Virus record (IMG/VR): IMGVR_UViG_2541047786_000002
Coordinates: 1-48,976 of that record
Origin: a virus
Taxonomy: Duplodnaviria > Heunggongvirae > Uroviricota > Caudoviricetes
DNA length: 48,976 bases
Direction: 5' to 3' (one strand)
The notes under the pieces were generated by a model, which did no database searches, was not told where the DNA came from, and saw nothing but the letters and a program-made list of their open reading frames with translations. How positions within the stretch are numbered: the stretch's first letter is position 1; each line of letters opens with the position of its first letter. This document shows, piece after piece, positions 1 through 18,055 of this stretch. A program made the position numbers and the translations under genes.

Positions 1-1131
1 TCAAATGACCAGTTTTTTCCATTCCTTACCGCGTGCGTCGTTGTAAATATCGGTCATTTTTTGATTCGAATGGCCCAGCAAAATTTTGGTATCAACCCCC
101 TGCTCTCTGAACAATCGCTCTGATAAAGATCTCTGCTCATGGAAAGAGGGTGGGGTGCCATTAGCACGCCAGTTGTAATCCACAGAATCCCGGGCTTTTT
201 TAAATGCAACGGTTAATGTTGCTGGCTTAACCATCCCGCCGCGCTTAGCTGTCCCTTTCGCGTGATGGTGGTGCAATAGCCACGGACTAAGAACGCAATC
301 GCGGCAGGATGACACCACATCATCTAGGGTGAGATTTAATTTATCGCAACGCAGAGCCAGAGGGATGGCAATCCGGGTTCCTGTTTTTTGCTGTTCGACA
401 TGAAGATAACCATCCCGGATATCCGAAAATTGCATTTTGCAAATATCTGAAAGGCGCTGGCCTGTCATCAGTGCCAGCAGCATACCGCGCTGTAAAAAGT
501 AACCATCCTTTTCCGCTGCGTTATAAATCATCATCCACTCATCAAAAGTCAGTCGCTGTCTTGATATCCGCACCTGCGGTTTTTTTGCCGATTCTGCAGG
601 GTTAAAGCCTGGCGGGACATCGCCCGTTTGCTGAGCTTCCCGGAAAATATCGATCAGTACTTTCCTGAAAATTTGTCCCATTCTGTTATGTCCTCTGGCC
701 TTGTACTCTTCCAGTACTGATACCACATCTTTTACGGTTATGGCATCTAACGGTCTGGTGCCAAAACGTTCATCAAATACCCTGAGAGGGGCCGCTTTCT
801 GTTTCAGCGTGTTGAGTTTGATCTCGCCGTTTTCATATCTTTCCTGTTGAATTTTTCTGTAATTATTCAGAAAAATGGTAACGGTTGATGAACCGCCGGT
901 ATCACTAATAATTTTCTCCTGCAGACTGAGCATTTGTTCCATTTGCTGCCGGGCAAGACGGCTGTTCGCTTCTGCTGCAATAGTTTCTGCCAGTTTCTGG
1001 TCAATACTGCCGAGACCGTGATTTTTGCCTGTTATGGGATGCCTGTAACGCCAGTAAACTTTGTTATTTCTTTTGTCAAAATACGGAGATAATCCCGGAA
1101 CATCGGTTTTATATTTTCGCGGGCGCGCCAT
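1..1131 (-). CDS. int: Tyrosine integrase (lambda Int family)
   Basis: 376-aa ORF; C-terminal tyrosine-recombinase motifs (HEQRSLSERL ... LLGHSNQKMTDIY); overlaps the upstream xis-like ORF by 23 nt as in lambda. Confidence 0.9.
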   Translation of the reverse strand: MARPRKYKTDVPGLSPYFDKRNNKVYWRYRHPITGKNHGLGSIDQKLAETIAAEANSRLARQQMEQMLSLQEKIISDTGGSSTVTIFLNNYRKIQQERYENGEIKLNTLKQKAAPLRVFDERFGTRPLDAITVKDVVSVLEEYKARGHNRMGQIFRKVLIDIFREAQQTGDVPPGFNPAESAKKPQVRISRQRLTFDEWMMIYNAAEKDGYFLQRGMLLALMTGQRLSDICKMQFSDIRDGYLHVEQQKTGTRIAIPLALRCDKLNLTLDDVVSSCRDCVLSPWLLHHHHAKGTAKRGGMVKPATLTVAFKKARDSVDYNWRANGTPPSFHEQRSLSERLFREQGVDTKILLGHSNQKMTDIYNDARGKEWKKLVI

Positions 1132-1357
1132 CTTCCAGTATCCTCTTCAAAGCAGGGTGATCTGTGGCGATCACCTCCGGCTTGTTTACCATTCCGACAA
1201 AGCGAGCTTGCGGATCCACTCGCCAGCGTCTTCCAACTTTTTTGGGGAGAGGAAATATCATTCCGGCTTTAGCGTATTTACTTAACGTACTCGGAGTAGG
1301 GACCGGTTCACTGAATTCCTCTTTTGCCCACTCAGTGAGCAGAATAAGTCTTGCCAT
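1109..1357 (-). CDS. xis: Excisionase (Xis-like)
   Basis: 82-aa basic ORF directly upstream of and overlapping int; segment LLTEWAKEEF...IFPLPKKVGRRWRV resembles the lambda Xis winged-helix region (recalled). Confidence 0.6.
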   Translation of the reverse strand: MARLILLTEWAKEEFSEPVPTPSTLSKYAKAGMIFPLPKKVGRRWRVDPQARFVGMVNKPEVIATDHPALKRILEDGAPAKI

Positions 1358-1421
1358 GAGCGTCGTTCGCTAATCATGGTCGCCGCCACTATAGCTGGTG
1401 GGCAACGACCGGGGTTGAACA

Positions 1422-3893
1422 TTAAAAATCAGCCTGATTTGGGATCAGTTTTTGCCAGATAGCTGAAACGTATTTTGCCTGGTAACGGGCGTCATCAAGT
1501 GCATTATGGCGCTCACCTTCGAATGGAATAGCCGTTCTGGCATCGAAGTCTATGGCTTTCCCCAGCTCAACGATTGTGCGTACATCGCGATCGTTGTAGT
1601 AACGCCACGGGCAGGGGATCCCCTGCCGTTCGTATGAACGGCGCAAAATCGTGTTGTCGAAGTTGGCTCCATTTCCCCAAACCTGAACAAAAAATTCACC
1701 GGAGTTTTCGTCGATAAATTCCCGCAATTGTAACAGTGCATCATCTAACGGGATTTCATCGGTCATAATGGCAGATTGCGCTTCGCGTGATTGCTTAAGC
1801 CACCATTTAATGGTGTCCCGATCAATGACTCCGCCAGCAGTTTCCAGATCGATAGTCTTACTAAATTCCGGTCCCATATCTCCGGTTTGCGGATCGAAAA
1901 ATATTGCACCTATTGAGATGATCGGGGCATCAGGATTTTTTCCCATGGTTTCAAGGTCGATCATTAGATGGTCACACGTCCTGCTGGTGGATGTGATTTC
2001 GTGATGACCGTTCACCTTAATTGAGCGATCTGCCGTCTCGCCAGTTTCATTATCGCTATCGTGATGCTGATTGCCGCCAGTGTTCTCCTTGTGTGGATGT
2101 TCAGCGCCTTCCATTTCCTCCGGATCATCTTCCTGAACTTCAACCTGATACTCTTCATCGAATGTTTCCTGGTATGTTGCGTCGCCCATCACCGCGCCAC
2201 AATCAGGGCAGTTGCCGCCGCCGGTCTGACCGCAGGCGGTGCAGACTTTTTCCACTTCCTGTTGCGCCACTGGTTCAGGCTGTTTCGTTTCTGGCTCGTT
2301 TTGTAACGCATTTGGGCTGTTTTGTTCCGCTTTTTGGTAGTTCCGTTCCGATTCATGCTGGTTCTGGTTCACAGAATCGCGGGTCTGGATCCCCTTAACC
2401 CATTTCGGATCATTCGGGTCACTAATCCCTTCAACAAATTCACCACGTGATGCAGCAAGCAACTTATCGGCGTCAGGCTGGCTGATATTGGCTGCCTGCA
2501 TAATTTTGTTTACTTCGTCAGCGGTAACTTTTATCGGCTCTGGTTGTTCTGAATCTTCAGCGGTATCTACATTTTGCGGTAAGCCCGTGTATGTGCCATT
2601 TTTTCGGGCAAAATATTCTTCTTTTGTGATTTCAGTGGCGCCAGCAGCCAGTGCCTTATCCAGACCAGAAAGTTTGTTTGCGCGACCGCATTTTTCTCCG
2701 TCCTTATCTGCGAAGAGGAAATAGAACGGCCCCTCACGCTCTACAGATGGTTCAGCTTCCGGCGCGGTTTCATTTTTTGGGATATCAGATACCTCAGTTT
2801 CCACTGCATCAGTTTGTGTTTCTGATGACTGGAGAACATCAACAGTGCCCAGGTCTGTTTCTTCATTCTCAAACACGCCCTTTGTCGTCAGGTATTCGCA
2901 GATATATTTGTTCAGTGCTATGGGATCTTTGTGAATGTCGATCGGACGCTCACGGACAAGGCCAAAAATAGTTTGGCGGTCGTAGCGAAGGGCATCAGGC
3001 TGTTTGCGCATTGATGCCGAGATACGCTTCCAGTCTTCGCGGTCGTTGTCGATAACTTCATTTTTTGCCCAGCGATGGATGCTGCCGTCAATGTTTCCGG
3101 CATCCACATCACCAGGCCAGAGAGCGTAGGCCAGTTCGTCATCCAGTGTTTTCCATGTCTGCTTGTATTCGCGATGAATGGCAGCAATGACCGGGCTGAT
3201 TTTTCCTGTTGAATTTTCACTGTGCTGTTGATTGGTTCTGGCGCGGGCGAGATCAATAACAGACGTGTATTTTCCGGTTTCCTTGCGTTCACCTTCGCGA
3301 CGTTTTTTCCAGATGCGCATCTCTGCCTGAATTTCGGGCCATTTGGCACCAGGCTTACATTTATGCTTAACCCACCCGATGGCATGCAGCTTAAGCTCCG
3401 GATACATGGCGTTAACTTCTGGCATTTTCATCAACGCTTCAACGATATGTCCGTCGAATGTTGCCATGTCTTCCTGCAACAATTCCTGTGCGCTAATAAC
3501 CATATCAACGGTGATGTTTTCACATGTGTCGAACTTAACCATGACAGCGTTCTGTACTTCAGGGGCCAGCTTGTCAAAAGTGACGTTCATCGGATCTGAT
3601 TCAGTCTCAACCGGGACAAAGGAAGCAGACTCCTCATCCCAGCGGTTTTCCTGCATATATTCAGCATCCCATGAATCGAGGGCAGGGCGGGGTATGCCAG
3701 GTTTATCCTCGCAGACAATAAATTTATAAGCGCAGTCCTGAGCAGCCGGATAATGTTCCAGGAATTGCCAGTGAAATTTTGCTCGAGCACGGCGTTCGTC
3801 GCCAGCTTCAATGGCTGTGGCTACAGCCACAGCGCCTTCTTCCCTTGTTGCCAGTTCGTCAGGAATAGCAGCGCAAATAAAGACCTTACTCAT
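1422..3893 (-). CDS. Large prophage exonuclease with C-terminal DnaQ-like DEDDh 3'-5' exonuclease domain (Exo VIII-like; full-length counterpart of the truncated Qin ydfE)
   Basis: 823-aa ORF; C-terminal motifs DLETMG ... WGNGANFD ... HNALDDA typical of DEDDh exonucleases; position between xis and the dicB operon. Confidence 0.75.
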   Translation of the reverse strand: MSKVFICAAIPDELATREEGAVAVATAIEAGDERRARAKFHWQFLEHYPAAQDCAYKFIVCEDKPGIPRPALDSWDAEYMQENRWDEESASFVPVETESDPMNVTFDKLAPEVQNAVMVKFDTCENITVDMVISAQELLQEDMATFDGHIVEALMKMPEVNAMYPELKLHAIGWVKHKCKPGAKWPEIQAEMRIWKKRREGERKETGKYTSVIDLARARTNQQHSENSTGKISPVIAAIHREYKQTWKTLDDELAYALWPGDVDAGNIDGSIHRWAKNEVIDNDREDWKRISASMRKQPDALRYDRQTIFGLVRERPIDIHKDPIALNKYICEYLTTKGVFENEETDLGTVDVLQSSETQTDAVETEVSDIPKNETAPEAEPSVEREGPFYFLFADKDGEKCGRANKLSGLDKALAAGATEITKEEYFARKNGTYTGLPQNVDTAEDSEQPEPIKVTADEVNKIMQAANISQPDADKLLAASRGEFVEGISDPNDPKWVKGIQTRDSVNQNQHESERNYQKAEQNSPNALQNEPETKQPEPVAQQEVEKVCTACGQTGGGNCPDCGAVMGDATYQETFDEEYQVEVQEDDPEEMEGAEHPHKENTGGNQHHDSDNETGETADRSIKVNGHHEITSTSRTCDHLMIDLETMGKNPDAPIISIGAIFFDPQTGDMGPEFSKTIDLETAGGVIDRDTIKWWLKQSREAQSAIMTDEIPLDDALLQLREFIDENSGEFFVQVWGNGANFDNTILRRSYERQGIPCPWRYYNDRDVRTIVELGKAIDFDARTAIPFEGERHNALDDARYQAKYVSAIWQKLIPNQADF

Positions 3894-3988
3894 TTTGTTT
3901 TAACCTCATTACAGATTTCAGGGTGAACGAATCCCTGCCATTGCTGGCATTTTTAATCCGTTGGTATGGTGTTAATATGGCTGGAGGG

Positions 3989-4177
3989 TTATCCAGCCGG
4001 TGTTTCGTTATTCAGGTACAGCGATACTTTTTTTAGCGGGAGGCATTCACCAGAAATTTTTTGCTCGTCTCTTGCCTGGAGGCAGGATTCTTTACTTGCA
4101 TAAATTCCGGTAATCACATTCTGTGATTCACCCGTTATAAGAAAAACCGTCATCATCAGTGCAAATGCTGAAGTCAT
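3989..4177 (-). CDS. ydfD: YdfD-like small membrane lysis protein
   Basis: 62-aa ORF with N-terminal hydrophobic segment, immediately downstream of dicB with ATGA start/stop overlap; resembles Qin YdfD (recalled). Confidence 0.65.
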   Translation of the reverse strand: MTSAFALMMTVFLITGESQNVITGIYASKESCLQARDEQKISGECLPLKKVSLYLNNETPAG

Positions 4178-4362
4178 TGACGTTCTCCGAAAATACCAAG
4201 TTCAAGAAGAGCAATTCGGGAAAGTATGGAATTATCATTGAGCAGATAAGGCTCATATTTCCTCATATTAATGGCATCTTCAGTAAACTCCCGGTTACTG
4301 AGCAGAACACCAATATCAAAACAACCTTCAGACGTATTAACGTTTGGTAATAACGTTTCCAT
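4174..4362 (-). CDS. dicB: Cell-division inhibitor DicB
   Basis: Internal start of track ORF 4174..4467 gives METLLPNVNTSEGCFDIGVLLSNREFTEDAINMRK..., closely matching the N-terminus of E. coli DicB (MKTLLPNVNTSEGCFEIGV..., recalled); 62 aa. Confidence 0.85.
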   Translation of the reverse strand: METLLPNVNTSEGCFDIGVLLSNREFTEDAINMRKYEPYLLNDNSILSRIALLELGIFGERQ

Positions 4363-4531
4363 TATCGCGTCCTCAACAATGAATTTTGTGATGCGGTGCC
4401 TGGTGCCTCCAGGTGACGTTAACCAGTTAACAATTAACGCCGGATACAGAGAATCCACCCATAACACTGTTTTTGGTTTTAACTGTTCCGCGTGCGCTCA
4501 GCCGCATTCACCACATCACAAAATTCACTTT

Positions 4532-4588
4532 AAAAAGGGCGGCAGAGCAGTCACGGAGTAAAACTGATACCGCCAAACGTCACCAGAA
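4532..4588 (-). ncRNA. dicF: DicF small regulatory RNA (ftsZ-targeting sRNA of dicB operons)
   Basis: Reverse complement reads TTTCTGGTGACGTTTGGCGGTATCAGTTTTACTCCGTGACTGCTCTGCCGCCCTTTTT, matching recalled E. coli DicF; lies just upstream of dicB on the same strand, as in Qin. Confidence 0.8.
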
Positions 4589-4925
4589 AATTGATAACAG
4601 AGGGCGTTGCAGCGGGGTTGTCACTTAAGCGTATGGTCAACCTGACAACCCGGTGTCCTCAGCGGGGAAGGAATAACCCCGCCATACTTACCGCCGCGCC
4701 ATTTCGCGGATTGCCACAACCGGAAGCGCACGGTCGAACTAAATTTAACGACACCGTACAGAGAGACCAATTTCGCCGTGCGCTTTCGCGTTATGCCCTG
4801 ACTTTTCAGGGACATATCCTTTCAGTAAACTGTCAGTGCCGGATTCTTATCCGTGTCCGGCGCACGACCACACGCTGTCACGAGAGGTCTCCATTCTCAA
4901 CCAGTAACCTCAATGGAGGATAAAA

Positions 4926-5119
4926 TGTCAGAGCAGGAGTTAAAACTTGGTGCATGTTATTGTGTTCTCAAGGAGCTGGTACACATGCTTCCATCTACTC
5001 AGTATCAACAGTTAGTTGGCAATTTAAATCAGCGAATCGAAGCTATGTTAAAATCTGATGGTTTTAATAACGTAGAAACGCTGATGCTAAAAAGATATCT
5101 TGATGGATTAATCAGATAA
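4926..5119 (+). CDS. Hypothetical 64-aa protein, antisense to the early-left operon
   Basis: ATG preceded by GGAGG at about -8; no recognisable family; may be spurious. Confidence 0.25.
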
Positions 5120-5458
5120 CATTTTTTTACGGCGTTCATATTCGTTAATATTTATGAAGCCTGTTGCCAGAAGCAGTTCGTTAATTTCATGGTTGTTTGG
5201 CTGTTTCTGGCTCTTTGAGCTGGGATCTTCCACTTCTTTTTCTGCAAATTGTTTTGCTGTATCCTCTGTGCCATGGATATTTAAAGCTGTATCTGAAAAC
5301 AGCCCAGTAAACGCATCGCGCACATTACGAGCCATATTATCAGTGTCTTTTTTTGTTACCGATTCCAATTCAAGTTCGTTCAGACGATGACGAAGTGTGT
5401 GTGCTGCAATCTCCTGGATTGAAGGAGGTAAATCTTTAAATTCCATCGTCAACCTCAT
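5108..5458 (-). CDS. Hypothetical early-left operon protein (116 aa; alternative start at MEFKDL)
   Basis: ORF coupled to the upstream gene by a TGATG overlap; acidic, Lys-rich; no family recognised. Confidence 0.5.
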   Translation of the reverse strand: MRLTMEFKDLPPSIQEIAAHTLRHRLNELELESVTKKDTDNMARNVRDAFTGLFSDTALNIHGTEDTAKQFAEKEVEDPSSKSQKQPNNHEINELLLATGFININEYERRKKMLSD

Positions 5459-5691
5459 CAGTCAGTGTTTCTTGCTAACCAGCGATGCGCGCCAGCTGCG
5501 GTTTTAAACGTTTTACTTTTGGTATACGTCATCGCGGTGAAGGTGCCGTCCTGGTTAGGGAACACACCGCATACCAGAGATTCGTTGTTGCCAAGATCGA
5601 TAGTATCCATGCTGACCTCATTTCCCCTTAACGCCGGGGTAGCGGAACAAAAACCTGCTGCATAGTTATTAAAGTTGAACCCTGCCGTCAT
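5458..5691 (-). CDS. Hypothetical early-left operon protein (77 aa), first gene after the repressor
   Basis: ORF in the position of the first PL-operon gene; no family recognised. Confidence 0.5.
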   Translation of the reverse strand: MTAGFNFNNYAAGFCSATPALRGNEVSMDTIDLGNNESLVCGVFPNQDGTFTAMTYTKSKTFKTAAGAHRWLARNTD

Positions 5692-5902
5692 GTTCTTACG
5701 CCTCGGGCTGGCTACTTAACCCCTGACCACTGCCTGGTAACTCGAAGTATTGCCCTGCATTCTGTGGGGTGGGGAGAGGGAATGAATGAAGTTTAGAAAA
5801 ATGAACTTTTCAGGTCAATGTTTTTTTATCAAAACATTTTAAGCAGGCAGTTGTTAAGCCATCACCACGATGGCATACAGTTAATCAAATAAATGAGGTC
5901 GG

Positions 5903-6541
5903 TTAAATATCTTGTTGAATTTTAAAGCATACGCCCAATATGCAAGATAGATCATCCAGCATAATTGAAGGGTAGCGAGGATTCGTGGGGACTAAAAGAA
6001 TATCCGGCCCTTCTATCTCCAGTTTACGAATGACAGGTGTTGTGGTCCCTTTGGGTAAGGCAAGGACAATATTTCCCGGTTGTACGGTTCGATCGGGATC
6101 AACAAAAACTGTTGAACCATTTGGGATGGAAACTCCCCCACCAGATGTTGACATACTGTCACTCTCTAGAACAACTGCAAAGGTATTGGCCGGGATTTCT
6201 CCGACAAGCTGCACACAAGAGGTTATTGAGGAATTTTTCATATAATCACTCCAGCTTGCTGCCTGCTGAAGTGATAGTAGCGGAACCGTTTTTATCGGCG
6301 GTAAAGATAGATCAAGCGAATCACCTGTATTTAACTCTCCTCCATTAAGAAGCCAATTTTCGTTTACTTTCAATATGTTTGCCAGTGAACTTATGTAACG
6401 CGAGGACGGCGCTCCTCCACCGTTCATCCATTGACTTACGGAGCCTTTTGATGCGCCAGTGGCATTGACAAGGTCTTTGCCTTTCAGGTTTAGCGCATGC
6501 ATACGTTGGGTTATGCGTTCAGATATTGTTTGCTTGCTCAT
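5903..6541 (-). CDS. CI-like prophage repressor (HTH_XRE N-terminus plus S24 LexA-like self-cleaving peptidase domain)
   Basis: 212 aa; N-terminal HTH (KGKDLVNATGASKGSVSQWMNG); C-terminal S24-like segment (VVLESDSM ... IVLALPKG ... RKLEI); divergent from the cro-like gene. Confidence 0.85.
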   Translation of the reverse strand: MSKQTISERITQRMHALNLKGKDLVNATGASKGSVSQWMNGGGAPSSRYISSLANILKVNENWLLNGGELNTGDSLDLSLPPIKTVPLLSLQQAASWSDYMKNSSITSCVQLVGEIPANTFAVVLESDSMSTSGGGVSIPNGSTVFVDPDRTVQPGNIVLALPKGTTTPVIRKLEIEGPDILLVPTNPRYPSIMLDDLSCILGVCFKIQQDI

Positions 6542-6632
6542 GTTTTGATTTTAAAACACAGATGGTTTTGTTTCTTGACTTTCTTTGGTTTTGATTATTA
6601 AACTTTTGGCGTTCAGTTTTATGGAGCGACTC
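6542..6632. promoter_or_regulatory. Divergent immunity-region promoter/operator interval (PRM/PR analogue)
   Basis: 91-bp AT-rich gap between divergent repressor and cro-like genes; contains TTTTAAAA palindrome and repeated GGTTTTG motifs; operator sites not resolved. Confidence 0.4.
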
Positions 6633-6875
6633 ATGAAAAAATCAGAAGTATTAGGCTATTTTGGCGGAGTTGTTAAAACAGCCGCAGCTCTAGGAACGTC
6701 AAAAACCACAGTCAGCATGTGGGGGGAAGAGGTTCCGTGGAAATGGGCGTTGCTAATTCAGGCAGTCACTGCCGGGGCGCTCAAATATGAGTTACACATA
6801 CCGACGGTTGTCATTCCCGGTTCAGATCATAATCCGCCTTCTAACCAAGGGGGGATTCATGAAAATCAAGCATGA
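6633..6875 (+). CDS. Cro-like HTH regulator (YdaS-like)
   Basis: Start at ATG 6633 preceded by GGAG; 80 aa with HTH-like segment (TAAALGTSKTTVSMW); divergent from the repressor. Confidence 0.6.
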   Translation: MKKSEVLGYFGGVVKTAAALGTSKTTVSMWGEEVPWKWALLIQAVTAGALKYELHIPTVVIPGSDHNPPSNQGGIHENQA

Positions 6876-7284
6876 ACACATCCGCATGGCGATGAATGCC
6901 TGGGCGCGTCCTGATGGCGAAAAAGTTCCGGCAGCTGGAATAACCCAGGCTTATTTTGAGTTGGGTATGACGTTTCCTGAACTGTACGACGACAGCCATC
7001 CGGAAGCCCTGGCCCGTAATACCCAGAAAATTTTCCGTTGGCTGGATAAAGACACCCCTGATGCTGTTGAAAAAATGCAGGCTCTGTTACCGGCGATCGA
7101 AAAGGCGATGCCGCCTTTGCTGGTGGCCCGTATGCGCAGCCACAGTTCTGAATATTACCGTGAGATCGTCGAACGGAGGGATCGGCTGGTGAAGGATGTC
7201 GATGATTTTGTTGCGTCAGCGGTTGTTTTGTATGACCAGATGAATCGCGGCGGCCCGGCAGGGAATGCTGTGGTGATGCACTAA
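6859..7284 (+). CDS. YdaT-like regulator (CII-analogue of Rac-type immunity regions)
   Basis: Start at ATG 6859 (SD AAGGGGGG); N-terminus MKIKHEHI matches recalled Rac YdaT N-terminus; 141 aa; overlaps cro-like gene end. Confidence 0.6.
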   Translation: MKIKHEHIRMAMNAWARPDGEKVPAAGITQAYFELGMTFPELYDDSHPEALARNTQKIFRWLDKDTPDAVEKMQALLPAIEKAMPPLLVARMRSHSSEYYREIVERRDRLVKDVDDFVASAVVLYDQMNRGGPAGNAVVMH

Positions 7285-7306
7285 AAGCACGGTGTTCGGG
7301 GGTTTT

Positions 7307-8269
7307 ATGAGCAGCAAGCTTCATGGTCTTGTCTGGGAAGGGTGCGCCTTCACCGGCATGATCTTATCCAGGGTGGCGGTTATGGCCCGTCTTGCAGACT
7401 ACAGCAATGACGAGGGCGTGTCATGGCCTGCCATTGAAACTATCCGGCGTCAGATCGGTGCAAGAAGTGAATCCACAGTGAAATCGGCTATTGCAGAACT
7501 GGCGAAAGAGGGCTGGCTGACGAAGGAAGAGCGTAAGGTCGGTGGGCGTAATGTAAGCAATATCTATCGGCTTAATGTGGAAAAACTCGAAGCAGCTGCG
7601 GCGGCGGCGCGTGAGTCATATAAACCGAAAAGAAAAATTAGCCCGGCAAAAAATGACCCGTTAACAGTTGACCCGTCAAATATTGACCCCTCAACGGTTG
7701 ACCCGTCAAATTTTGATGGATCAACCGTTGATAAAAAACTGCCGATTAGGGGGGCGATGATTGACCCCGATCCGTCAGTATTAAAACCTGATCCGTCAGA
7801 TAAAAGATCTTCTTGTCCGGACGCTTCGCAACCGGACCCGCAGACGGCTGAACAGGATTTTTTAACCCGACACCCTGACGCGGTTGTGTTCAGTGCGAAA
7901 AAACGCCAGTGGGGAAGTCAGGAAGATTTGGTGTGCGCACAGTGGATCTGGGGACGAATCGTGAGTCTTTACGAGCAGGCGGCCAGCGATGATGGCGAGA
8001 TCACTAGACCGAAAGAACCCAACTGGACAGCATGGGCCAATGACGTTCGCACAATGCGGATGCTGGATGGCAGAACTCACAGACAAATTTGTGAAATGTT
8101 TGGGCGTCTCCAGCGGGATTCGTTCTGGGTAAAAAACATCATGAGTCCGGCAAAACTCCGGGAAAAATGGGATGAACTGGTTATCCGCCTGGGGCGTTCG
8201 CCTGCGCAGCGTTGCGTGAATCACATTTCTGAACCGGACACTGAAATTCCGCCGGGCTTCAGGGGGTAA
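7307..8269 (+). CDS. Replication initiation protein (lambda O-like N-terminal winged-helix domain; origin embedded in its linker)
   Basis: HTH replication-protein-like N-terminus (VSWPAIETIRRQIGARSESTVKSAIAELAKEGWL); repeated DPS(T/N)(V/I)D linker encoded by iterons; SD GGGGG upstream of ATG 7307. Confidence 0.7.
   Translation: MSSKLHGLVWEGCAFTGMILSRVAVMARLADYSNDEGVSWPAIETIRRQIGARSESTVKSAIAELAKEGWLTKEERKVGGRNVSNIYRLNVEKLEAAAAAARESYKPKRKISPAKNDPLTVDPSNIDPSTVDPSNFDGSTVDKKLPIRGAMIDPDPSVLKPDPSDKRSSCPDASQPDPQTAEQDFLTRHPDAVVFSAKKRQWGSQEDLVCAQWIWGRIVSLYEQAASDDGEITRPKEPNWTAWANDVRTMRMLDGRTHRQICEMFGRLQRDSFWVKNIMSPAKLREKWDELVIRLGRSPAQRCVNHISEPDTEIPPGFRG
7653..7740 (+). repeat. Iteron array (candidate origin of replication) inside the replication gene
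   Basis: At least four copies of about 14-bp dyad-symmetric motif TTGACCC(G/C)TCAA(A) at roughly 14-15 bp spacing (7653, 7667, 7683, 7697), followed by an AT-rich stretch GATAAAAAACT. Confidence 0.55.
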
Positions 8270-8309
8270 GTGTTAATTTCTGGTCATGAGGTAATTTTCA
8301 GGAGGGCTT

Positions 8310-8732
8310 GTGGCAAAAGTTTTTACACAAGAAGAGCGGGAAAAAATTAAAGGGCTGATCGTGGAATTCGTACGCCTTAACGGACGAGGCACGATTCGGC
8401 AGTTATCGGATGAAATTGGTGTCAGTCATACGTCTGTCGGTCGTTTATGCATGGAGCTGGCCGCCAGTGGTGATGTTTACAATTCCGGTTACGGAGTATT
8501 CCCGTCTGAGCAGGCGCGCAAGGACTGGCAAAACGCCCGCAAAAAACTCTCAAGGGCAAAGCTGAAGAAACCATCTGTGGTTGATCCGGACCTTATCTGG
8601 CTATTACCTGACGGAGAAATACGTCGCTACGACAGGCGTCAGAACATAATCTGTCGCGAGTGCCGGAAGAGCGAAGTTATGCAGCGCGTACTGGCGTTTT
8701 ATCAGGGGAATTTTGAGGAGGTGGTGCGGTGA
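8310..8732 (+). CDS. Hypothetical protein (140 aa), downstream of the replication gene
   Basis: ORF with SD; stop overlaps the next ORF start; no family recognised. Confidence 0.5.
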   Translation: MAKVFTQEEREKIKGLIVEFVRLNGRGTIRQLSDEIGVSHTSVGRLCMELAASGDVYNSGYGVFPSEQARKDWQNARKKLSRAKLKKPSVVDPDLIWLLPDGEIRRYDRRQNIICRECRKSEVMQRVLAFYQGNFEEVVR

Positions 8733-8983
8733 GTGAATCAAAATGCCAGGTTAATGGCAACAAGATAGAACCATGTGCAGCACTGGCAAAGTCCCTTGAG
8801 CATGATGCTGAATACACGATGCGAAAAGGTCTGCTGATATACAAAATCTGGAATGAGAGTTTAACTCGCGGTCCTGATTTTGTGATGTTGCGTTCCGGTG
8901 AATTTTCTAAATTACCAGTTCGGGTTTCATTTTGTCCGTTCTGTGGTGAAAGTCTGAAAACGTGGGAGAACAGAAATGAATGA
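8729..8983 (+). CDS. Hypothetical zinc-ribbon protein (nin-region-like)
   Basis: 84 aa with C-terminal CPFCG motif; translationally coupled to neighbours. Confidence 0.45.
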   Translation: MSESKCQVNGNKIEPCAALAKSLEHDAEYTMRKGLLIYKIWNESLTRGPDFVMLRSGEFSKLPVRVSFCPFCGESLKTWENRNE

Positions 8984-9287
8984 AATCAAAGAAATACCAG
9001 TAGTACGTGATGAATATGGCTGCTGGACGCATCCTGAATATGAAAAATTCTGTGACGGTCGGGAATATATTTCAACGGAAGAGTTTAACGCCTGGATGGA
9101 GGAAAATAATCTTCAATACGTCCTCTGCTTCAGAGATGAAGGATGTGCTGACCTTGATGCGCGTGATGCTGATATTTCTGCATGGGAACCGGAACGACCA
9201 GAGGGCAATGGATGGTTTATTGGTTCAATACATGACACCGAAGATGGCCCGGTTTGTGTATGGCTGAGAAATAAGGCCGAAGCATAA
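8976..9287 (+). CDS. Hypothetical protein (103 aa)
   Basis: ORF overlapping the previous stop; acidic C-terminus. Confidence 0.45.
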   Translation: MNEIKEIPVVRDEYGCWTHPEYEKFCDGREYISTEEFNAWMEENNLQYVLCFRDEGCADLDARDADISAWEPERPEGNGWFIGSIHDTEDGPVCVWLRNKAEA

Positions 9288-9415
9288 AGGCTATAAACCG
9301 ACTAACAACTAAATACTGAAGATTTAAATCAGAAACGATTTTTATTAAATCCTTAACCGGAGGGATTCCTGCACCCTCAGAACATCAGGAGGCCGTCCGA
9401 AAGGGCGGTAGTGAA

Positions 9416-9598
9416 ATGCGAAAATTCAAAATAATTATTGAAACGGGAATAGCCGGTGGAGATTTCGAGGATGAATTCGAAGTGGATGATGATGCAACAC
9501 CAGATGAAATACAGGATGAAGCTAAAGATATTTTCTTTAACTACTGCAATTACTCATACCACGAAATAAAAGACGAAGAGGAAGAACAAAATGGCTGA
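9416..9598 (+). CDS. Hypothetical acidic small protein (60 aa)
   Basis: ORF with upstream SD-like GAAAGGG. Confidence 0.4.
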   Translation: MRKFKIIIETGIAGGDFEDEFEVDDDATPDEIQDEAKDIFFNYCNYSYHEIKDEEEEQNG

Positions 9599-9767
9599 TT
9601 TTGGTTCAACTAAATATAACGCCAGTTTTGAAGAATGGCATGAACTGTTAATGGATTATGCAGAGTTACGCGGTAGAAGTGCCGCTGATGCTGAAGCATG
9701 GCGTGATGATTATGAAGCAGGGAAAACACCGGTCGAAGCATATTGTGATGAGTGGGGCGATGAATGA
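9591..9767 (+). CDS. Hypothetical small protein (58 aa; below the ORF-track length cut-off)
   Basis: ATG 9591 overlaps the previous stop and its TGA overlaps the next ATG (ATGA); translation MADFGSTKYNASFEEWHELL... Confidence 0.4.
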   Translation: MADFGSTKYNASFEEWHELLMDYAELRGRSAADAEAWRDDYEAGKTPVEAYCDEWGDE

Positions 9768-10123
9768 GCGAGATTAATTATCAGGAAGGGCATGAAAAGG
9801 CAGGGCAGGCAAAACCAGTGGCATGGCGATATCGCTACGTGAAAAAAGGCGTTACAGACTTTCAGGGGAAGCAGTGGGTTGGTGACTGGAAATATGTCCC
9901 GACAAAAGAGGATTGTAACGACAGACCAAACTATGAAATTCAGGCGTTATTCACGGCCCCGCCAGCTTCGGTGACATCAGAAGGACTGGTTAAAGCTGTG
10001 CGCTTTTATGAACAGGTACGGCGTGAGGATCCGCCAGTTGAAACCGGAGCATGGAAAGACGCTATTGACTGGGTACTCAAGGAGGCCTGCCTGGTTGTAA
10101 ACACGGGCATCAAAGGAGGCTGA
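9764..10123 (+). CDS. Hypothetical protein (119 aa)
   Basis: Coupled ORF in the nin-like run. Confidence 0.45.
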   Translation: MSEINYQEGHEKAGQAKPVAWRYRYVKKGVTDFQGKQWVGDWKYVPTKEDCNDRPNYEIQALFTAPPASVTSEGLVKAVRFYEQVRREDPPVETGAWKDAIDWVLKEACLVVNTGIKGG

Positions 10124-10339
10124 ATGGGTATTGCCGCAAGTTATACCATGCATCTCTATTGTGATTGCCGCCAGTGTACGGATGGCAAATATCAGTCGCC
10201 AGATTTTGGTGAGTATATCGGTACGTCATGGGCTGGCTGTGCAAAAGAGGCACGTAAAGATGGGTGGCGAATAAGTGCCGACAAAACGCGTGCTTTTGCG
10301 CCAGGGCATAAAATTTTGAGGAGCAACAAAGGAGAGTGA
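10124..10339 (+). CDS. Hypothetical Cys-containing small protein (71 aa)
   Basis: Coupled ORF. Confidence 0.4.
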   Translation: MGIAASYTMHLYCDCRQCTDGKYQSPDFGEYIGTSWAGCAKEARKDGWRISADKTRAFAPGHKILRSNKGE

Positions 10340-10340
10340 T

Positions 10341-10559
10341 GTGCCTACATTATTCAGAAAAGAATATCCGCGAAAAAGTAGAGCGACAGAATTTTTGTTT
10401 CTCATTCTGTTTATCGTGTTGATGATACCGATATCCCCGTTAATTCTGGTATGGGGAATCGGAAAAATAATTGAGCCAGTTATTGAATTGTATAACGACG
10501 TGGTATGGGCTCCGTTCAACACACTGCACAATAAAATTAATCCGTATAAGGAAAACTGA
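10341..10559 (+). CDS. Hypothetical small membrane protein (72 aa)
   Basis: One predicted TM helix (FLFLILFIVLMIPISPLILVWGIG). Confidence 0.4.
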   Translation: MPTLFRKEYPRKSRATEFLFLILFIVLMIPISPLILVWGIGKIIEPVIELYNDVVWAPFNTLHNKINPYKEN

Positions 10560-10560
10560 T

Positions 10561-10824
10561 ATGGCAACTTTGACAAAAAAAGAACAGGCATGGTTGAACG
10601 AATTACAGGACGTTCTTGATCGCTGTCCATCACCGAAAAAAATTGGTTTTTACACCATTGGCGATAAAAGCATTTACCTGTATGACCTGCGCCGCATGGA
10701 TGAAATCATGGAGGCTCTTGATAATCGTTCGTCAATGGATTGGTGTGTTGCTGTCCATGATATGAATGCAGGGTTTGATGAAAAGATTTTGTTCCCCTCA
10801 TCAGTTGAAAGCACTGCGGGTTAA
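10561..10824 (+). CDS. Hypothetical protein (87 aa)
   Basis: ATG 10561 directly after the previous stop; start re-assigned from track ORF 10471. Confidence 0.4.
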   Translation: MATLTKKEQAWLNELQDVLDRCPSPKKIGFYTIGDKSIYLYDLRRMDEIMEALDNRSSMDWCVAVHDMNAGFDEKILFPSSVESTAG

Positions 10825-10834
10825 GGAGTAACAC

Positions 10835-11737
10835 ATGACCACTATTACCAAAGAACGTATTGAATTGTTCATTAAAAACCCGCTTGAAAACGGGCTTACC
10901 CGTGGTGAACAAATGGAACTGGCACGGATTGCGCTGGCATCGCTGGAAGCAGATCCAGTTAAACGAGTTAACTCAGATCAGATGCGCCGAGTCTGCTTAG
11001 AAGCTAATCGCCATTTAGATAAATATGACGCGATGGCGAAAGAGGTAAATAAGTTGCTTGGACGCATCGCCCCGCCAGCGCCGGTAGTGCCGGAAGAAGC
11101 AACTCCGGAAAACGTAGAAATGCTCTCTGGCTATGTTTCCACGTACAAATTAACCGATAGCGAGCGCGATATTGCTGCCGAAATATGGAACGCCTGCCGC
11201 ACCGCCATGCTTCAGTCCGGAAACTTTCGGGAAAGCAAGAATTCGTCAACCAATAATTTTCGGGAAATCCCGGAAGCGTCAACCAGCTCTCCGGTAACTC
11301 CGGCTCTTCTGCCTGGTGGTTTCACCATTGAGGAGGCGAAGGAATTACATGAAGACCTGGTACGCAGCCACATAAGCAAGGCCTTAAGTGGCGAAAAGAT
11401 GAAAAAGAAAGATCGCGATGCTGATTTGCGCTGGATTCATGGCGTTATAGTTCAGGCAGCGTGGTTTGTAAAAGCATCACTGGAGCAGAATGCACTATCG
11501 GGCAACTCTCCGGCAACTCCGGATGGTTGGATAAGCTGTAGTGAGCGAATGCCGAATACCAAAACAGCCGTTCTTGTTGCCGTGGAGTTTGACAGGAAAG
11601 GTGACTGGCGAATGAAATGGGCTACTTACATCCCCGGGCATCCTGACGCTAATGATGGGTGGATAATTCCTGGTGCGTCGTGGAAACCGTCACACTGGAT
11701 GCCGCTACCAGAACCGCCGCAGGAGGTGAATCAATGA
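10835..11737 (+). CDS. DUF551-domain phage protein
   Basis: 300 aa; C-terminal W/G-rich motif ending HWMPLPEPP, typical of DUF551. Confidence 0.6.
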   Translation: MTTITKERIELFIKNPLENGLTRGEQMELARIALASLEADPVKRVNSDQMRRVCLEANRHLDKYDAMAKEVNKLLGRIAPPAPVVPEEATPENVEMLSGYVSTYKLTDSERDIAAEIWNACRTAMLQSGNFRESKNSSTNNFREIPEASTSSPVTPALLPGGFTIEEAKELHEDLVRSHISKALSGEKMKKKDRDADLRWIHGVIVQAAWFVKASLEQNALSGNSPATPDGWISCSERMPNTKTAVLVAVEFDRKGDWRMKWATYIPGHPDANDGWIIPGASWKPSHWMPLPEPPQEVNQ

Positions 11738-11817
11738 GCTGGCCTGAAGCATTAACAACGGTAGGAATTGCGATGGCGGTGGCGCTGGTGGTGTATTCGA
11801 TTTGCCGCTGGGGATAA
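11734..11817 (+). CDS. Hypothetical 27-aa hydrophobic peptide
   Basis: ATGA-coupled to the DUF551 gene; single TM-like segment; could be spurious. Confidence 0.25.
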   Translation: MSWPEALTTVGIAMAVALVVYSICRWG

Positions 11818-12028
11818 AAACGGTTTGCGGGAAAAGGAGAGTTAAGTAGAATTGCAGCGGGTGCTTGAGGCTATCTGTCTCAGGCATGAACACCAAAAGG
11901 CAGATAGAGAAAAGCCCCAGTTAACATTACGCGTCCGGCAAGACGCTTAACATTAATCTGAGGCCATATCTATGCTCTACACACGTAGGTTAGCCTCTTA
12001 CGTGCCGAAAGGCAAGGAGAAGCAGGCT

Positions 12029-12184
12029 ATGAAGCAGCAAAAGGCGATGCTAATCGCCCTGATCGTCATCTGTTTAACCGTCATAGTGACGGCACTGGTA
12101 ACGAGGAAAGACCTCTGCGAGGTACGAATCCGAACCGGCCAGACGGAGGTCGCTGTCTTCACAGCTTACGAACCTGAGGAGTAA
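12029..12184 (+). CDS. hokD: Hok/Gef-family membrane toxin (HokD/RelF-type)
   Basis: 51-aa product MKQQKAMLIALIVICLTVIVTALVTRKDLCEVRIRTGQTEVAVFTAYEPEE matches recalled E. coli HokD; track ORF 11972..12184 is an in-frame N-terminal extension. Confidence 0.85.
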   Translation: MKQQKAMLIALIVICLTVIVTALVTRKDLCEVRIRTGQTEVAVFTAYEPEE

Positions 12185-12253
12185 GAGACCTGGCGGGGGA
12201 GAAATCCCTCGCCACCTCTGATGAGTCAGGCATCCTCAATGCACCCGCGCTTA

Positions 12254-12274
12254 ACCCGCTTCGGCGGGTTTTTC
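12254..12274 (+). terminator. Rho-independent terminator after hok
   Basis: Stem ACCCGC / GCGGGT with TTCG loop followed by TTTTT. Confidence 0.7.
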
Positions 12275-12288
12275 TAGCATCTATCTGG

Positions 12289-12325
12289 TTGACAAAGTCT
12301 ATGTTAAATGGAAATATGGTTGACA
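12289..12325 (+). promoter_or_regulatory. Candidate promoter/operator of the two-gene module
   Basis: Two direct copies of TGGTTGACA (12286-12294 and 12317-12325); first TTGACA has a 17-nt spacer to a weak -10 AAATAT; SD AAGGA ends about 10 nt before ATG 12351. Confidence 0.4.
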
Positions 12326-12350
12326 CCAAAACAACAAGGATATTACGGTC

Positions 12351-14107: not shown

Positions 14108-14118
14108 TTCTCATTCAT

Positions 14119-14142
14119 GCCCGCCTCGGCGGGTTTTTGTTT
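14119..14142 (+). terminator. Rho-independent terminator after the two-gene module
   Basis: Stem CCCGC / GCGGG with CTCG loop followed by TTTTTGTTTT; near-identical to the hok terminator. Confidence 0.7.
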
Positions 14143-14213
14143 TACGTATTCTGGTTTACAATCCACAGGCCAGCCTGAACAACTGGCACCTGCTGCGCCA
14201 GCAGAGACAACCG

Positions 14214-14492: not shown

Positions 14493-14493
14493 T

Positions 14494-16748: not shown

Positions 16749-16753
16749 CAAGG

Positions 16754-16781
16754 TTGATTTTTCCGGAATCTGTGGTAAATT
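16754..16781 (+). promoter_or_regulatory. Late promoter pR'-like (Q utilisation region)
   Basis: -35 TTGATT (16754-16759), 16-nt spacer, TG-extended -10 TAAATT (16776-16781), directly after Q. Confidence 0.5.
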
Positions 16782-16828
16782 CGTCATAACGATGGGCCTT
16801 TTATGCCTGACGTTAGAAGAGTTTCTAC

Positions 16829-18046: not shown

Positions 18047-18055
18047 GTAAACTCC

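What the first reader, a model, noticed from the sequence alone, without database searches (positions are those of the whole stretch)
3989..4588. Intact dicB-DicF-ydfD division-inhibition cassette on a complete prophage
A DicF sRNA match (4532..4588, minus strand) lies immediately upstream of a DicB homologue and a YdfD-like lysis protein, all downstream of the repressor-controlled early-left promoter. On induction or superinfection these would block FtsZ/Min function, and DicB is reported to interfere with ManYZ-dependent phage DNA entry, so the cassette is a plausible superinfection-exclusion module.
Basis: partly seen in the sequence, partly recalled or inferred. Interest (0 to 1): 0.45.

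Follow-up and report, generated by a model that had tools for sequence, protein, structure and literature searches.

The report
Common prophage DicF–DicB–YdfD division-inhibition cassette
This is a genuine, intact copy of the well-known prophage dicF–dicB–ydfD cell-division-inhibition module in the early-left operon of a lambda-like E. coli prophage; about 87% of complete E. coli genomes carry its RNA block, so it is correctly identified but ordinary.

Summary
Rfam DicF (RF00039) matches window 4588..4537 (-) at 76.7 bits against a gathering score of 48. The 53-nt K-12 dicF is 100% identical at 4589..4537. DicB (4362..4174, PF05358, E 6e-37) follows 175 nt downstream. A YdfD-like DUF1482 protein (4177..3989) overlaps it through ATGA. 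All lie about 1.2 kb downstream of a sigma-70-type pL (5818..5790). Operator-like 16-mers flank pL and recur at pR, next to a lambda-cI-like repressor. The 190-nt pre-DicF is 188/190 identical to K-12. The window carries a full, unbroken set of lambdoid genes of the "PPompW" type; the att sites lie outside it.

The module is already known. The 364-nt RNA block occurs in 4,719 of 5,426 complete E. coli genomes (median 2 copies). This exact dicB–ydfD allele pair occurs in about 1,020. Functional phages with dicBF are described.

Caveats: DicB is 63% and YdfD 43% identical to the tested K-12 proteins, so their activities are inferred. Superinfection exclusion needs derepression of pL.

Side observation: the DicF–dicB spacer is an invariant, stable structure closed by a 21-bp helix, and it weakly resembles STnc100.

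The parts
5790..5818 (-). Early-left promoter (pL-like): -35 TTGACC 5818..5813, 17-nt spacer, -10 TAAACT 5795..5790
   Evidence: Consensus scan, 9/12 match. The number of promoter-like sites in the region is not above chance; the position and the flanking operators are what support this one.
5791..5835 (.). Two operator-like 16-mers (5791..5806 GTTTAGAAAAATGAAC; 5835..5820 GTTTTGATAAAAAAAC). One overlaps the -10 and spacer; the other abuts the -35 of pL.
   Evidence: Repeat families D2, D3, I1 and I2 link them to the pR region. In the motif scan, 4 of the 5 best sites in the window lie at pL or pR.
5903..6541 (-). Lambda-cI-type repressor (HTH + S24 peptidase), 212 aa
   Evidence: Pfam Peptidase_S24 and HTH_3; PHROG transcriptional repressor; full-length alignment to lambda cI 3BDN with Ser and Lys aligned but Ala-Ala at the Ala-Gly scissile site.
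6542..6604 (+). pR-like promoter (TTGACT 6575..6580, 18-nt spacer, TAAACT 6599..6604) with operator-like sites at 6542..6557, 6565..6580 (weak) and 6588..6603, spaced 23 bp apart
5458..5610 (-). ydfA-like gene (DUF1391), first gene of the operon
   Evidence: Pfam PF07151 E 8e-29; 43 of 51 residues identical to K-12 YdfA.
5108..5446 (-). Phage ORF of unknown function (phrog_2151) occupying the position of ydfB/ydfC in Qin
   Evidence: PHROG E 2e-55, alignment starting at residue 5 of the 116-aa ORF; no Pfam hit; no similarity to K-12 here.
4713..4797 (-). Long hairpin holding the RNase III site that gives the 5' end of the 190-nt pre-DicF (expected at 4726). The arms are conserved and the apex is variable.
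   Evidence: Folds of the window and of K-12; the cleavage position is taken from PMC10448788; apex 75-93% identical against 93-99% for the neighbouring pre-DicF 5' segment (4590..4726) and 98-100% for DicF itself.
4590..4726 (-). 5' part of the 190-nt pre-DicF: a multi-branch domain, then a hairpin (4599..4592 with 4585..4578) that pairs the DicF 5' end and places the RNase E site in its A/U loop
   Evidence: 188/190 identical to K-12; fold z = -2.26; helix list.
4532..4589 (-). DicF sRNA (53 nt, 4589..4537) with terminator hairpin and U5 tail (to 4532)
   Evidence: RF00039 at 76.7 bits; 100% identical to K-12 dicF; fold.
4378..4529 (-). Structured DicF-dicB spacer: a 21-bp helix (4529..4509 with 4398..4378) enclosing a multi-hairpin domain of about 110 nt (4508..4399). 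The published 72-nt DicF 3' end (+72 = 4518) falls mid-helix.
   Evidence: Fold z = -4.63, 0 of 200 shuffles as stable; helix coordinates; 6-sequence consensus with one clean compensatory pair and wobble-compatible changes; sub-threshold STnc100 hit at 38.7 bits; the 72-nt species from PMC5069750.
4174..4362 (-). dicB (62 aa), SD GAGGA at 4374..4370
   Evidence: PF05358 E 6e-37; 39/62 identical to K-12 DicB, with residues 1-15 identical except K2E; 95% identical to DicB of PPompW prophages.
3989..4177 (-). ydfD-like gene (DUF1482, 62 aa), start overlapping the dicB stop (ATGA)
   Evidence: PF07358 E 1.5e-14; phrog_1092 E 2e-33; 27/63 identical to K-12 YdfD, both Cys residues kept.

Best explanation
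This is a standard dicBF module embedded in the early-left (pL) operon of an apparently complete lambda-like prophage of the ompW-integrating 'PPompW' type.

Proposed working, in order:

1. While the cI-like repressor occupies the operators at pL, the operon is off.
2. On derepression, one leftward transcript runs through ydfA, an ORF of unknown function, the pre-DicF region, DicF, dicB and ydfD, and then on towards exo, xis and int.
3. RNase III cuts a long hairpin about 137 nt upstream of DicF and yields a 190-nt precursor.
4. RNase E cuts in the A/U-rich loop of a small hairpin that masks the DicF 5' end and yields the 53-nt sRNA. Its 3' end is its own intrinsic terminator.
5. Polymerases that read through the terminator transcribe a structured spacer. 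Its 21-bp helix is the probable second RNase III site (the 72-nt DicF species). They then transcribe the translationally coupled dicB and ydfD.
6. DicF represses ftsZ translation, along with its other known K-12 targets. DicB redirects MinC to the septum and blocks Z-ring formation, and through MinC it inhibits ManYZ. YdfD is a small lysis protein whose action DicB holds in check.

The net effect is a kil-like arrest of host division during early lytic development. Resistance to ManYZ-dependent phages is a by-product whenever the operon is on.

Shown here: the sequence identities, gene order, promoter and operator layout, and RNA folds. Inferred from K-12 work: the processing steps and all protein and sRNA activities.
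For: - DicF covariance-model hit and 100% identity to K-12 dicF.
- 190-nt pre-DicF 188/190 identical to K-12, with the RNase III hairpin arms conserved.
- Published processing scheme and transcript sizes (PMC10448788; PMC5069750).
- +72 maps to the middle of a 21-bp helix.
- Spacer fold z = -4.63, with structure-compatible substitutions.
- DicB and DUF1482 full-length Pfam hits, and the ATGA overlap.
- DicB N-terminal 15 residues, the segment shown to be essential (PMC4967827), are identical except at position 2, where substitutions are tolerated.
- pL-like promoter, operators shared between pL and pR, and no terminator-like site between pL and DicF.
- Repressor aligns over its full length to lambda cI with the Ser/Lys dyad.
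- Same gene order in K-12 Qin, an O104:H4 prophage and TUM13773.
- Full lambdoid gene set, with late-gene lengths matching a 99.6% relative.
- Module present in 4,719 of 5,426 genomes and in sequenced phages.
Against: - DicB residues 34-62 and most of YdfD differ from the proteins that were tested (39/62 and 27/63 identical). MinC binding, ManYZ inhibition and IspG-dependent lysis are therefore assumed.
- No N-like antiterminator or nut/put site was identified, so how much transcription passes the DicF terminator into dicB, exo, xis and int is unknown.
- The repressor has Ala-Ala where lambda cI has its Ala-Gly scissile bond, so SOS-driven derepression is not assured.
- The whole-length DicF/ftsZ duplex energy is only weakly better than shuffled controls (27 of 500 as good). 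The targeting argument rests on identity with K-12 DicF, and the host ftsZ is not in the window.
- No expression data exist for this element.
Confidence: 0.82

Rival explanations
1. The cassette is mainly a lysogen-benefit ('moron') module. Low-level, stationary-phase or subpopulation expression from the resident prophage supplies DicB to block ManYZ-dependent DNA entry by other phages, and DicF to retune host metabolism. On this reading it is kept for superinfection exclusion rather than for the phage's own lytic programme.
For: DicB expressed from Qin gives about 100-fold resistance to lambda and other ManYZ-dependent phages (PMC6832061). DicF accumulates in stationary phase, and about 1% of K-12 cells switch dicBp on spontaneously (PMC10448788). 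The RNA block is retained in 87% of genomes, often in several copies.
Against: Here the operon sits directly behind operator-flanked pL of an apparently complete phage, at the position where lambda and Rac carry kil/kilR (my own knowledge). That fits an early lytic function. The published exclusion needed ectopic induction, which also filaments and kills cells. An incoming heteroimmune phage would not derepress this pL. The two roles are not mutually exclusive.
Confidence: 0.3
2. The cassette is an inert passenger. The diverged DicB and YdfD alleles have lost activity, and only the DicF RNA block is under selection.
For: The non-coding block (pre-DicF, DicF, spacer) is 96-100% identical in most loci compared, whereas the dicB 3' half and ydfD are replaced or unalignable in most of them.
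Against: Both ORFs are intact, full-length Pfam and PHROG family members, with an SD and the coupled ATGA start. This exact allele pair is found at 80% or more coverage in 1,020 genomes, with a 100% identical copy, and at 95% protein identity in PPompW prophages. The DicB N-terminus, the known essential part, is conserved. The pattern looks like allelic mosaicism, not decay.
Confidence: 0.06

Closest known systems
dicBF operon of the cryptic prophage Qin, E. coli K-12 (ydfABC-dicF-dicB-ydfDE under DicA/DicC)
   Same: Same order ydfA ... dicF - dicB - ydfD. DicF is 53/53 identical and the 190-nt precursor 188/190. The spacer is 99% identical. dicB and ydfD overlap in both. Both lie behind a pL-like promoter next to an immunity region.
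   Different: ydfB/ydfC are replaced by an unrelated phage ORF plus a convergent antisense ORF. DicB is 63% and YdfD 43% identical. The repressor is a lambda-cI-type HTH+S24 protein rather than DicA with its Rem antirepressor (PMC10448788). The surrounding prophage has a full gene set, whereas Qin is a remnant with ydfE and intQ as pseudogenes.
PPompW-type lambdoid prophages (GenBank records named 'Enterobacteria phage PPompW_*' and 'Stx2a-converting phage Stx2_*', which also carry a PPompW feature; the O104:H4 2009EL-2071 prophage next to potC; TUM13773 and CE10 prophages next to ompW)
   Same: O104:H4 matches 92% of window 3900..5950 at 98.0% identity with the same genes. PPompW DicB is 95% identical. 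The window's int end corresponds to the ompW side in TUM13773 and its last gene to the ompW fragment side in CE10.
   Different: The immunity region differs. O104:H4 and TUM13773 have a shorter HTH repressor plus relBE between the repressor and pL. No complete E. coli genome in the collection covers 80% or more of window 1..24000, so this is a new mosaic of known modules.
Functional temperate phages carrying dicB/dicF (mEp460_ev081, Tritos, HannyBb, vB_EcoS-640R1 and others)
   Same: dicF and dicB sit in the early-left region of sequenced phage genomes. Tritos is annotated with 'DicF antisense sRNA'. mEp460_ev081 is discussed as a functional phage with dicBF in PMC10448788.
   Different: Their DicB is the Qin-type allele (65-72% identical to the window's). 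mEp460_ev081 is reported to carry dicAC- and rem-like genes (PMC10448788).
Kil of phage lambda and KilR of prophage Rac (analogy only; from my own knowledge, not tested here)
   Same: Small host-division inhibitors encoded in the pL operon between the immunity region and the recombination, xis and int genes, and expressed on derepression.
   Different: No sequence relationship. Kil and KilR act on FtsZ (Kil with ZipA) rather than through MinC, and neither is accompanied by an sRNA.

Membership tests
DicF sRNA (Rfam RF00039) | Covariance-model score at or above the curated gathering score, over the full model | tested here: met
   76.7 bits against 48, model positions 1-52 of 52.
DicF sRNA (Rfam RF00039) | Sequence of the experimentally characterised 53-nt K-12 DicF, including both target-pairing regions | tested here: met
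   53/53 identical at 4589..4537.
DicF sRNA (Rfam RF00039) | 3' intrinsic terminator (G+C stem followed by a U run) | tested here: met
   Stem GGCGGUA/UGCCGCC with an inner 5-bp stem, then UUUUU.
DicF sRNA (Rfam RF00039) | [quoted passage not shown] | tested here: met
   190-nt precursor 188/190 identical to K-12, hairpin arms conserved. No minus-strand promoter-like site between pL and DicF. The cleavage itself was not testable.
DicF sRNA (Rfam RF00039) | Antisense pairing with the ftsZ translation-initiation region | tested here: inconclusive
   Predicted duplex with K-12 ftsZ -29..+25 at -38.5 kcal/mol, against -31.6 +/- 4.1 for shuffles; 27 of 500 shuffles are as good. The host ftsZ is not in the window. 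The inference rests on identity with K-12 DicF.
DicF sRNA (Rfam RF00039) | Accumulation of a stable RNA of about 53 nt and filamentation on expression | not testable with these tools
   Needs northern blot or RNA-seq and microscopy.
DicB (Pfam PF05358) | Full-length HMM match above the gathering score; about 62 aa | tested here: met
   125.5 bits against 27, residues 1-62 on profile positions 1-62.
DicB (Pfam PF05358) | Intact N-terminal segment (about the first 14 residues, including L5) required for activity | tested here: met
   METLLPNVNTSEGCF against MKTLLPNVNTSEGCF. Position 2 tolerates substitution but not deletion (PMC4967827).
DicB (Pfam PF05358) | Binds MinC, blocks the Z ring and inhibits ManYZ | not testable with these tools
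   No solved structure to model against. The C-terminal 29 residues are only about 40% identical to K-12.
YdfD / DUF1482 (Pfam PF07358) | HMM match above the gathering score; about 62 aa; located directly after dicB and overlapping it | tested here: met
   54 bits against 25; ATGA overlap at 4177..4174.
YdfD / DUF1482 (Pfam PF07358) | Lysis on expression, IspG binding, and suppression of lysis by DicB | not testable with these tools
   Only 27/63 identical to the tested K-12 protein. The paper states that intact N- and C-terminal domains are needed (PMC8835842).
Lambda-type immunity region with an SOS-cleavable repressor | HTH plus S24 peptidase domain with a Ser/Lys dyad | tested here: met
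   Pfam. The alignment to lambda cI 3BDN places SDSM opposite GNSM and RK opposite KK.
Lambda-type immunity region with an SOS-cleavable repressor | Ala-Gly (or Cys-Gly) scissile bond | tested here: not met
   QQAAS aligns with lambda VQAGM, giving Ala-Ala at the cleavage position. The consequence for cleavage is unknown.
Lambda-type immunity region with an SOS-cleavable repressor | Related operators at both pL and pR | tested here: met
   16-mers at 5791..5806, 5820..5835, 6542..6557 and 6588..6603.
Complete (non-cryptic) lambdoid prophage | All functional modules present as uninterrupted ORFs | tested here: met
   int, xis, exo, cI, cro, O-like, Q, holin, endolysin, Rz/Rz1, terminase, portal, protease, capsid, tail, J and fibre are all present. 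Late-gene lengths equal those in CE10 (99.6% identity), and the window lacks the IS3 element annotated within the CE10 match.
Complete (non-cryptic) lambdoid prophage | attL/attR present; inducible and able to form plaques | not testable with these tools
   The window begins at the int stop codon and ends at the stop of the last gene. The flanks are not given.
STnc100 sRNA (Rfam RF02076), considered for the DicF-dicB spacer | Score at or above the gathering score | tested here: not met
   38.7 bits against 47, E about 1e-6 to 3e-6. This is resemblance only. A true STnc100 lies at 17841..18030 with 132 bits.

The most novel reading that the evidence does not exclude
The 175-nt DicF-dicB spacer is a functional RNA element in its own right, not a passive linker. 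It is nearly invariant across prophages whose flanking genes differ. It folds far better than shuffled sequence. It shares an architecture with the prophage sRNA family STnc100/PasD. Its 21-bp closing helix coincides with the published RNase III cut that yields the 72-nt DicF. A double-strand cut there would separate DicF from the dicB-ydfD mRNA, trim the dicB leader to about 25 nt, and release an inner RNA domain of about 125 nt. That fragment could be a second, undescribed prophage sRNA or a switch gating dicB translation.
Probability: 0.2. Interest if true: 0.4.

Novelty: already known. Interest (0 to 1): 0.1.

Why it matters
It matters little as a discovery. The dicBF module, its processing, its targets and its wide distribution in E. 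coli prophages are all published, and phages carrying it are already noted in the literature.

The modest value of this copy is as material. It places the 100%-conserved DicF RNA block behind a lambda-cI-type repressor in a prophage that appears to have every gene needed for growth. That would allow the still-open question of what dicBF does for the phage (a kil-like host arrest versus protection of the lysogen) to be tested in a natural context rather than in the Qin remnant.

It also offers a second, diverged DicB/YdfD allele pair for mapping which residues contact MinC, ManYZ and IspG.

Tried and rejected
1. RNAduplex of DicF against K-12 ftsZ -60..+30. The predicted pairing spans the RBS and AUG, but 27 of 500 shuffled DicF sequences do as well. 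I do not use it as independent evidence.

2. Scan of one genome per species for a degenerate DicF pattern. It returned only 7 loci: Escherichia, Shigella and three oddly binned MAGs. That is too little divergence for a real covariation test of the pre-DicF domain or the spacer. The 6-sequence consensus fold gives one clean compensatory pair plus three weaker ones (four by the tool's count) and several wobble-compatible changes. This is suggestive only.

3. PDB sequence search with DicB found no solved relative, so I did not attempt structural reasoning on the diverged C-terminus.

4. Rfam at a permissive E-value over 3900..6700 and 4250..4950 found nothing for the conserved 5' pre-DicF domain. 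The tsr32 and ftsZ-DE hits (E 2.4 and 7.4) are noise.

5. First operator pattern was one base too long and gave a chance-level count. I replaced it with the 16-mer scan. Even then the total number of sites in the window (5) is not above shuffles (mean 3.1). Only their clustering at pL and pR is informative.

6. The 64-aa minus-strand ORF 4815..4621 and the plus-strand ORFs overlapping dicB and the spacer (4159..4350, 4271..4561, 4473..4628). I rejected them as genes: 4815..4621 has no family hit and its frame is broken by indels and stops in K-12, and the others lie antisense to conserved RNA or CDS.

7. I looked for an N-like antiterminator gene downstream of pL and found none among the ORFs. 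I did not search for nut or put sites.

8. My recollection of the RNase III site was corrected by the literature. The upstream site gives the 190-nt 5' end and the downstream site gives the 72-nt 3' end.

Full report
**Observation**

A whole-window Rfam scan at gathering thresholds returns DicF (RF00039) at 4588..4537 on the minus strand. The score is 76.7 bits against a gathering score of 48, E 2.8e-15, covering model positions 1-52 of 52 with posterior probability 1.00. The hit recurs in two narrower scans. The 53-nt dicF annotated in E. coli K-12 occurs as an exact string at window 4589..4537 (-), followed by TTTTT. On its own this RNA folds as a single-stranded 5' region of 15 nt followed by the terminator hairpin.

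Downstream on the same strand, after a 175-nt spacer, lies a 62-codon ORF at 4362..4174. It matches Pfam DicB end to end (125.5 bits, cut-off 27). A second 62-codon ORF at 4177..3989 matches DUF1482, the YdfD family (54 bits, cut-off 25). The ydfD ATG overlaps the dicB TGA as ATGA.

**Context and regulation**

On the minus strand, upstream of DicF, lie a DUF1391 (ydfA-like) gene at 5610..5458 and an ORF of unknown function at 5446..5108 (phrog_2151). Upstream of those is a sigma-70-type site, TTGACC-17-TAAACT, at 5818..5790. No terminator-like site was found on the minus strand between that promoter and DicF.

Immediately upstream is a 212-aa HTH + S24 peptidase repressor at 6541..5903. It aligns along its length with lambda cI (3BDN). 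The alignment places its SDSM and RK opposite the lambda stretches GNSM and KK, which hold the catalytic Ser and Lys of lambda cI (residue assignment from my own knowledge). It has Ala-Ala where lambda has the Ala-Gly scissile bond.

A 16-mer of the form GTTTTGAnnnnTAAAC occurs at 5835..5820 (abutting the -35) and at 5791..5806 (over the -10). It occurs again at 6542..6557 and 6588..6603, with a weaker copy at 6565..6580. Those sites sit at 23-bp spacing over a pR-like promoter in front of a P22-Cro-family gene. The number of such sites in the window is not above chance (5 against 3.1 in shuffles). Four of the five, however, fall in these two short promoter regions. This is the classic lambdoid OL/pL and OR/pR arrangement, so 'downstream of the repressor-controlled early-left promoter' is supported by sequence.

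**The RNA block**

A three-way alignment with K-12 Qin and an O104:H4 prophage, and a segment-by-segment comparison with ten other loci, give a clear pattern.

| Segment | Window coordinates | Identity in the other loci |
|---|---|---|
| 5' part of pre-DicF | 4726..4590 | 93-99% |
| DicF | 4589..4537 | 98-100% |
| Spacer | 4536..4363 | 96-100% in eight loci, 84% in one, truncated in one |
| ydfB/C region, 3' half of dicB, ydfD | flanks | replaced or unalignable in most |

The published scheme for K-12 is as follows. RNase III creates the 5' end of a 190-nt species. RNase E creates the 5' end of the 53-nt species. The 3' end is the intrinsic terminator (PMC10448788). RNase III processing of the full-length mRNA gives a 72-nt form (PMC5069750).

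In the window, the 190-nt precursor (4726..4537) is 188/190 identical to K-12. Position 4726 lies in the 3' arm of a long hairpin whose arms are conserved while its apex varies. In the precursor fold, the DicF 5' end (4585..4578) pairs with 4599..4592, and the RNase E site lies in the A/U-rich loop. Position +72 (4518) lies in the middle of a 21-bp helix (4529..4509 with 4398..4378) that closes the spacer.

That spacer folds with z = -4.63, and 0 of 200 shuffles are as stable. Across six sequences it keeps its pairs, with one clean compensatory change and several wobble-compatible ones. All the known processing determinants are thus present, and the cassette is 'intact' in a functional sense as far as sequence can show.

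**The proteins**

- DicB is 39/62 identical to K-12 DicB. Residues 1-15 differ only at position 2 (K to E). Truncation and mutation work shows that the first roughly 14 residues are essential, that residue 2 can be substituted but not deleted, and that the last 8 residues are dispensable (PMC4967827).
- The allele is 95% identical to DicB of PPompW prophages and 65-72% identical to the Qin-type allele in sequenced phages.
- YdfD is 27/63 identical to the K-12 lysis protein, with both cysteines kept. The K-12 protein binds IspG, needs both of its domains, and is neutralised by DicB (PMC8835842).
- No relative of DicB has a solved structure.
- Activities are therefore inferred by family membership and synteny, not shown.

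**'Complete prophage'**

The window starts at the stop codon of a 376-aa integrase and ends at the stop of its last gene. It contains xis, an 823-aa exonuclease, the immunity region, a YdaT-like gene, an O-like initiator, and a Ren-like protein. It also contains hok/sok, DUF968, RusA and Q. Two tRNAs and STnc100 follow, then an esterase, holin, endolysin and Rz/Rz1.

The late region is a lambda-like set running from terminase to tail fibre. Its ORF lengths equal those annotated in strain CE10, which is 99.6% identical across 24001..48976. CE10 differs in having an IS3 transposase annotated within the match, which is 2,075 bp longer than the query.

In relatives the int end abuts ompW and the far end abuts an ompW fragment. 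This matches GenBank records named 'phage PPompW'. Gene content is therefore complete. The att sites and inducibility cannot be judged, and the non-canonical repressor cleavage site is a caution.

**How common is it?**

- The 364-nt RNA block (4726..4363) matches in 4,719 of 5,426 complete E. coli genomes. In 4,080 of them it matches at 80% or more coverage. The median is 2 copies per genome and the maximum 10.
- The dicB-ydfD allele pair is found at 80% or more coverage in 1,020 genomes, including a 100% identical copy.
- The 2-kb region is 98.0% identical over 92% of its length in O104:H4 strains.
- 61 phage records match part of it.
- Multiple dicBF copies in pathogenic E. coli (PMC5069750) and a functional dicBF phage (PMC10448788) are already in the literature.
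- A strict DicF pattern was found only in Escherichia and Shigella, apart from three MAGs that are probably mis-binned.

**Interpretation**

The best reading is the conventional one, set out under Best explanation: a kil-like early-left host-division block built from an sRNA and two small proteins. DicB-dependent resistance to ManYZ-using phages would follow whenever the operon is on.

It depends on derepression, because a superinfecting phage would not itself turn on this pL. I rank it as a secondary, non-exclusive role.

The only feature that is not simply a repeat of K-12 is the wiring. Here the repressor is of the cI type with an S24 domain, rather than DicA with Rem, and the setting is an apparently whole phage. 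This is ordinary lambdoid mosaicism.

**Verdict**

The feature is real, correctly identified and already known. Interest is low (0.1). The one loose end worth a note is the invariant, STnc100-like structured spacer between DicF and dicB (38.7 bits, below the gathering score of 47). Its 21-bp helix fits the published 72-nt RNase III product, and it might be more than a processing site.

Noticed in passing
window 4378..4529 (-): The DicF-dicB spacer is a very stable multi-hairpin structure (z = -4.63) closed by a 21-bp helix. It is nearly invariant across prophages whose flanking genes differ. It gives a sub-threshold STnc100 (RF02076) hit of 38.7 bits, E about 1e-6. The published 72-nt DicF 3' end maps mid-helix. 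RefSeq annotates nothing here.
   Followed up: partly
L009:987-1599 (MAG 'Proteobacteria bacterium' scaffold_26): A DicF copy whose spacer keeps the outer helix and the CACCUGGAGGCACCAGG hairpin (84% identity) but is followed by an ORF unrelated to dicB (MIAHHYGTD...). The spacer therefore travels with DicF rather than with dicB.
   Followed up: partly
window 4925..5119 (+): A 64-aa ORF with a strong SD (GGAGG), a full-length member of phrog_4987 (E 3e-49, function unknown). It runs antisense inside the early-left operon, converges on the upstream ORF and overlaps its end by 12 nt. It is annotated as hypothetical in O104:H4. Convergent transcription here could affect the yield of pre-DicF.
   Followed up: partly
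window 5903..6541 (-): The cI-like repressor keeps the S24 Ser/Lys dyad but has Ala-Ala where lambda cI has its Ala-Gly autocleavage bond (alignment to 3BDN). Whether it is RecA-cleavable is open.
   Followed up: partly
window 4727..4800 (-): The apex of the upstream RNase III hairpin comes in two allele types among the loci compared (about 75% or about 91% identity to the window), while the helix arms and everything downstream are 93-100% identical.
   Followed up: partly
window 4606..4720 (-): The 5' part of the 190-nt pre-DicF is predicted to fold into a three-armed, cloverleaf-like domain closed by an 8-bp stem (whole precursor z = -2.26). It matches no Rfam family, and there is too little sequence variation to test covariation.
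   Followed up: partly
window 17841..18030 (+): A bona fide STnc100 sRNA (132 bits) just after the two tRNA genes and upstream of a 658-aa ORF (18637..20613) that sits where relatives annotate an SASA-family carbohydrate esterase or a DUF6645 protein. This is the position that stx occupies in Stx phages (my own knowledge).
   Followed up: no
window 11859..12034 (+): A sok antitoxin RNA (117 bits). A relative annotates hokD at the corresponding place, so this is a hok/sok type I toxin-antitoxin locus in the nin-like region.
   Followed up: no
window 16892..16967 and 17068..17142 (+): Two phage-borne tRNA genes, tRNA-Met(CAT) and tRNA-Arg(TCT), downstream of the Q-like antiterminator gene (15927..16748).
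   Followed up: no
window 8310..8732 (+): A 140-aa DUF977-type protein matching the PHROG 'Ren-like exclusion protein' (phrog_142, E 1e-44). It is another candidate exclusion function on the same prophage.
   Followed up: no
L008 and L010 (MAGs labelled Veillonella parvula and Collinsella sp.): Contigs carrying DicF with ydfA-like flanks are assigned to Firmicutes and Actinobacteria bins. These are almost certainly mis-binned enterobacterial prophage DNA.
   Followed up: no
window 3978..3999: A G+C-rich hairpin (CGGCUGGAUAACCCUCCAGCCA on the minus strand) straddles the ydfD stop codon with no U-run after it. It could mark or stabilise a transcript 3' end, by analogy with the K-12 transcript reported to end after ydfD.
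   Followed up: no
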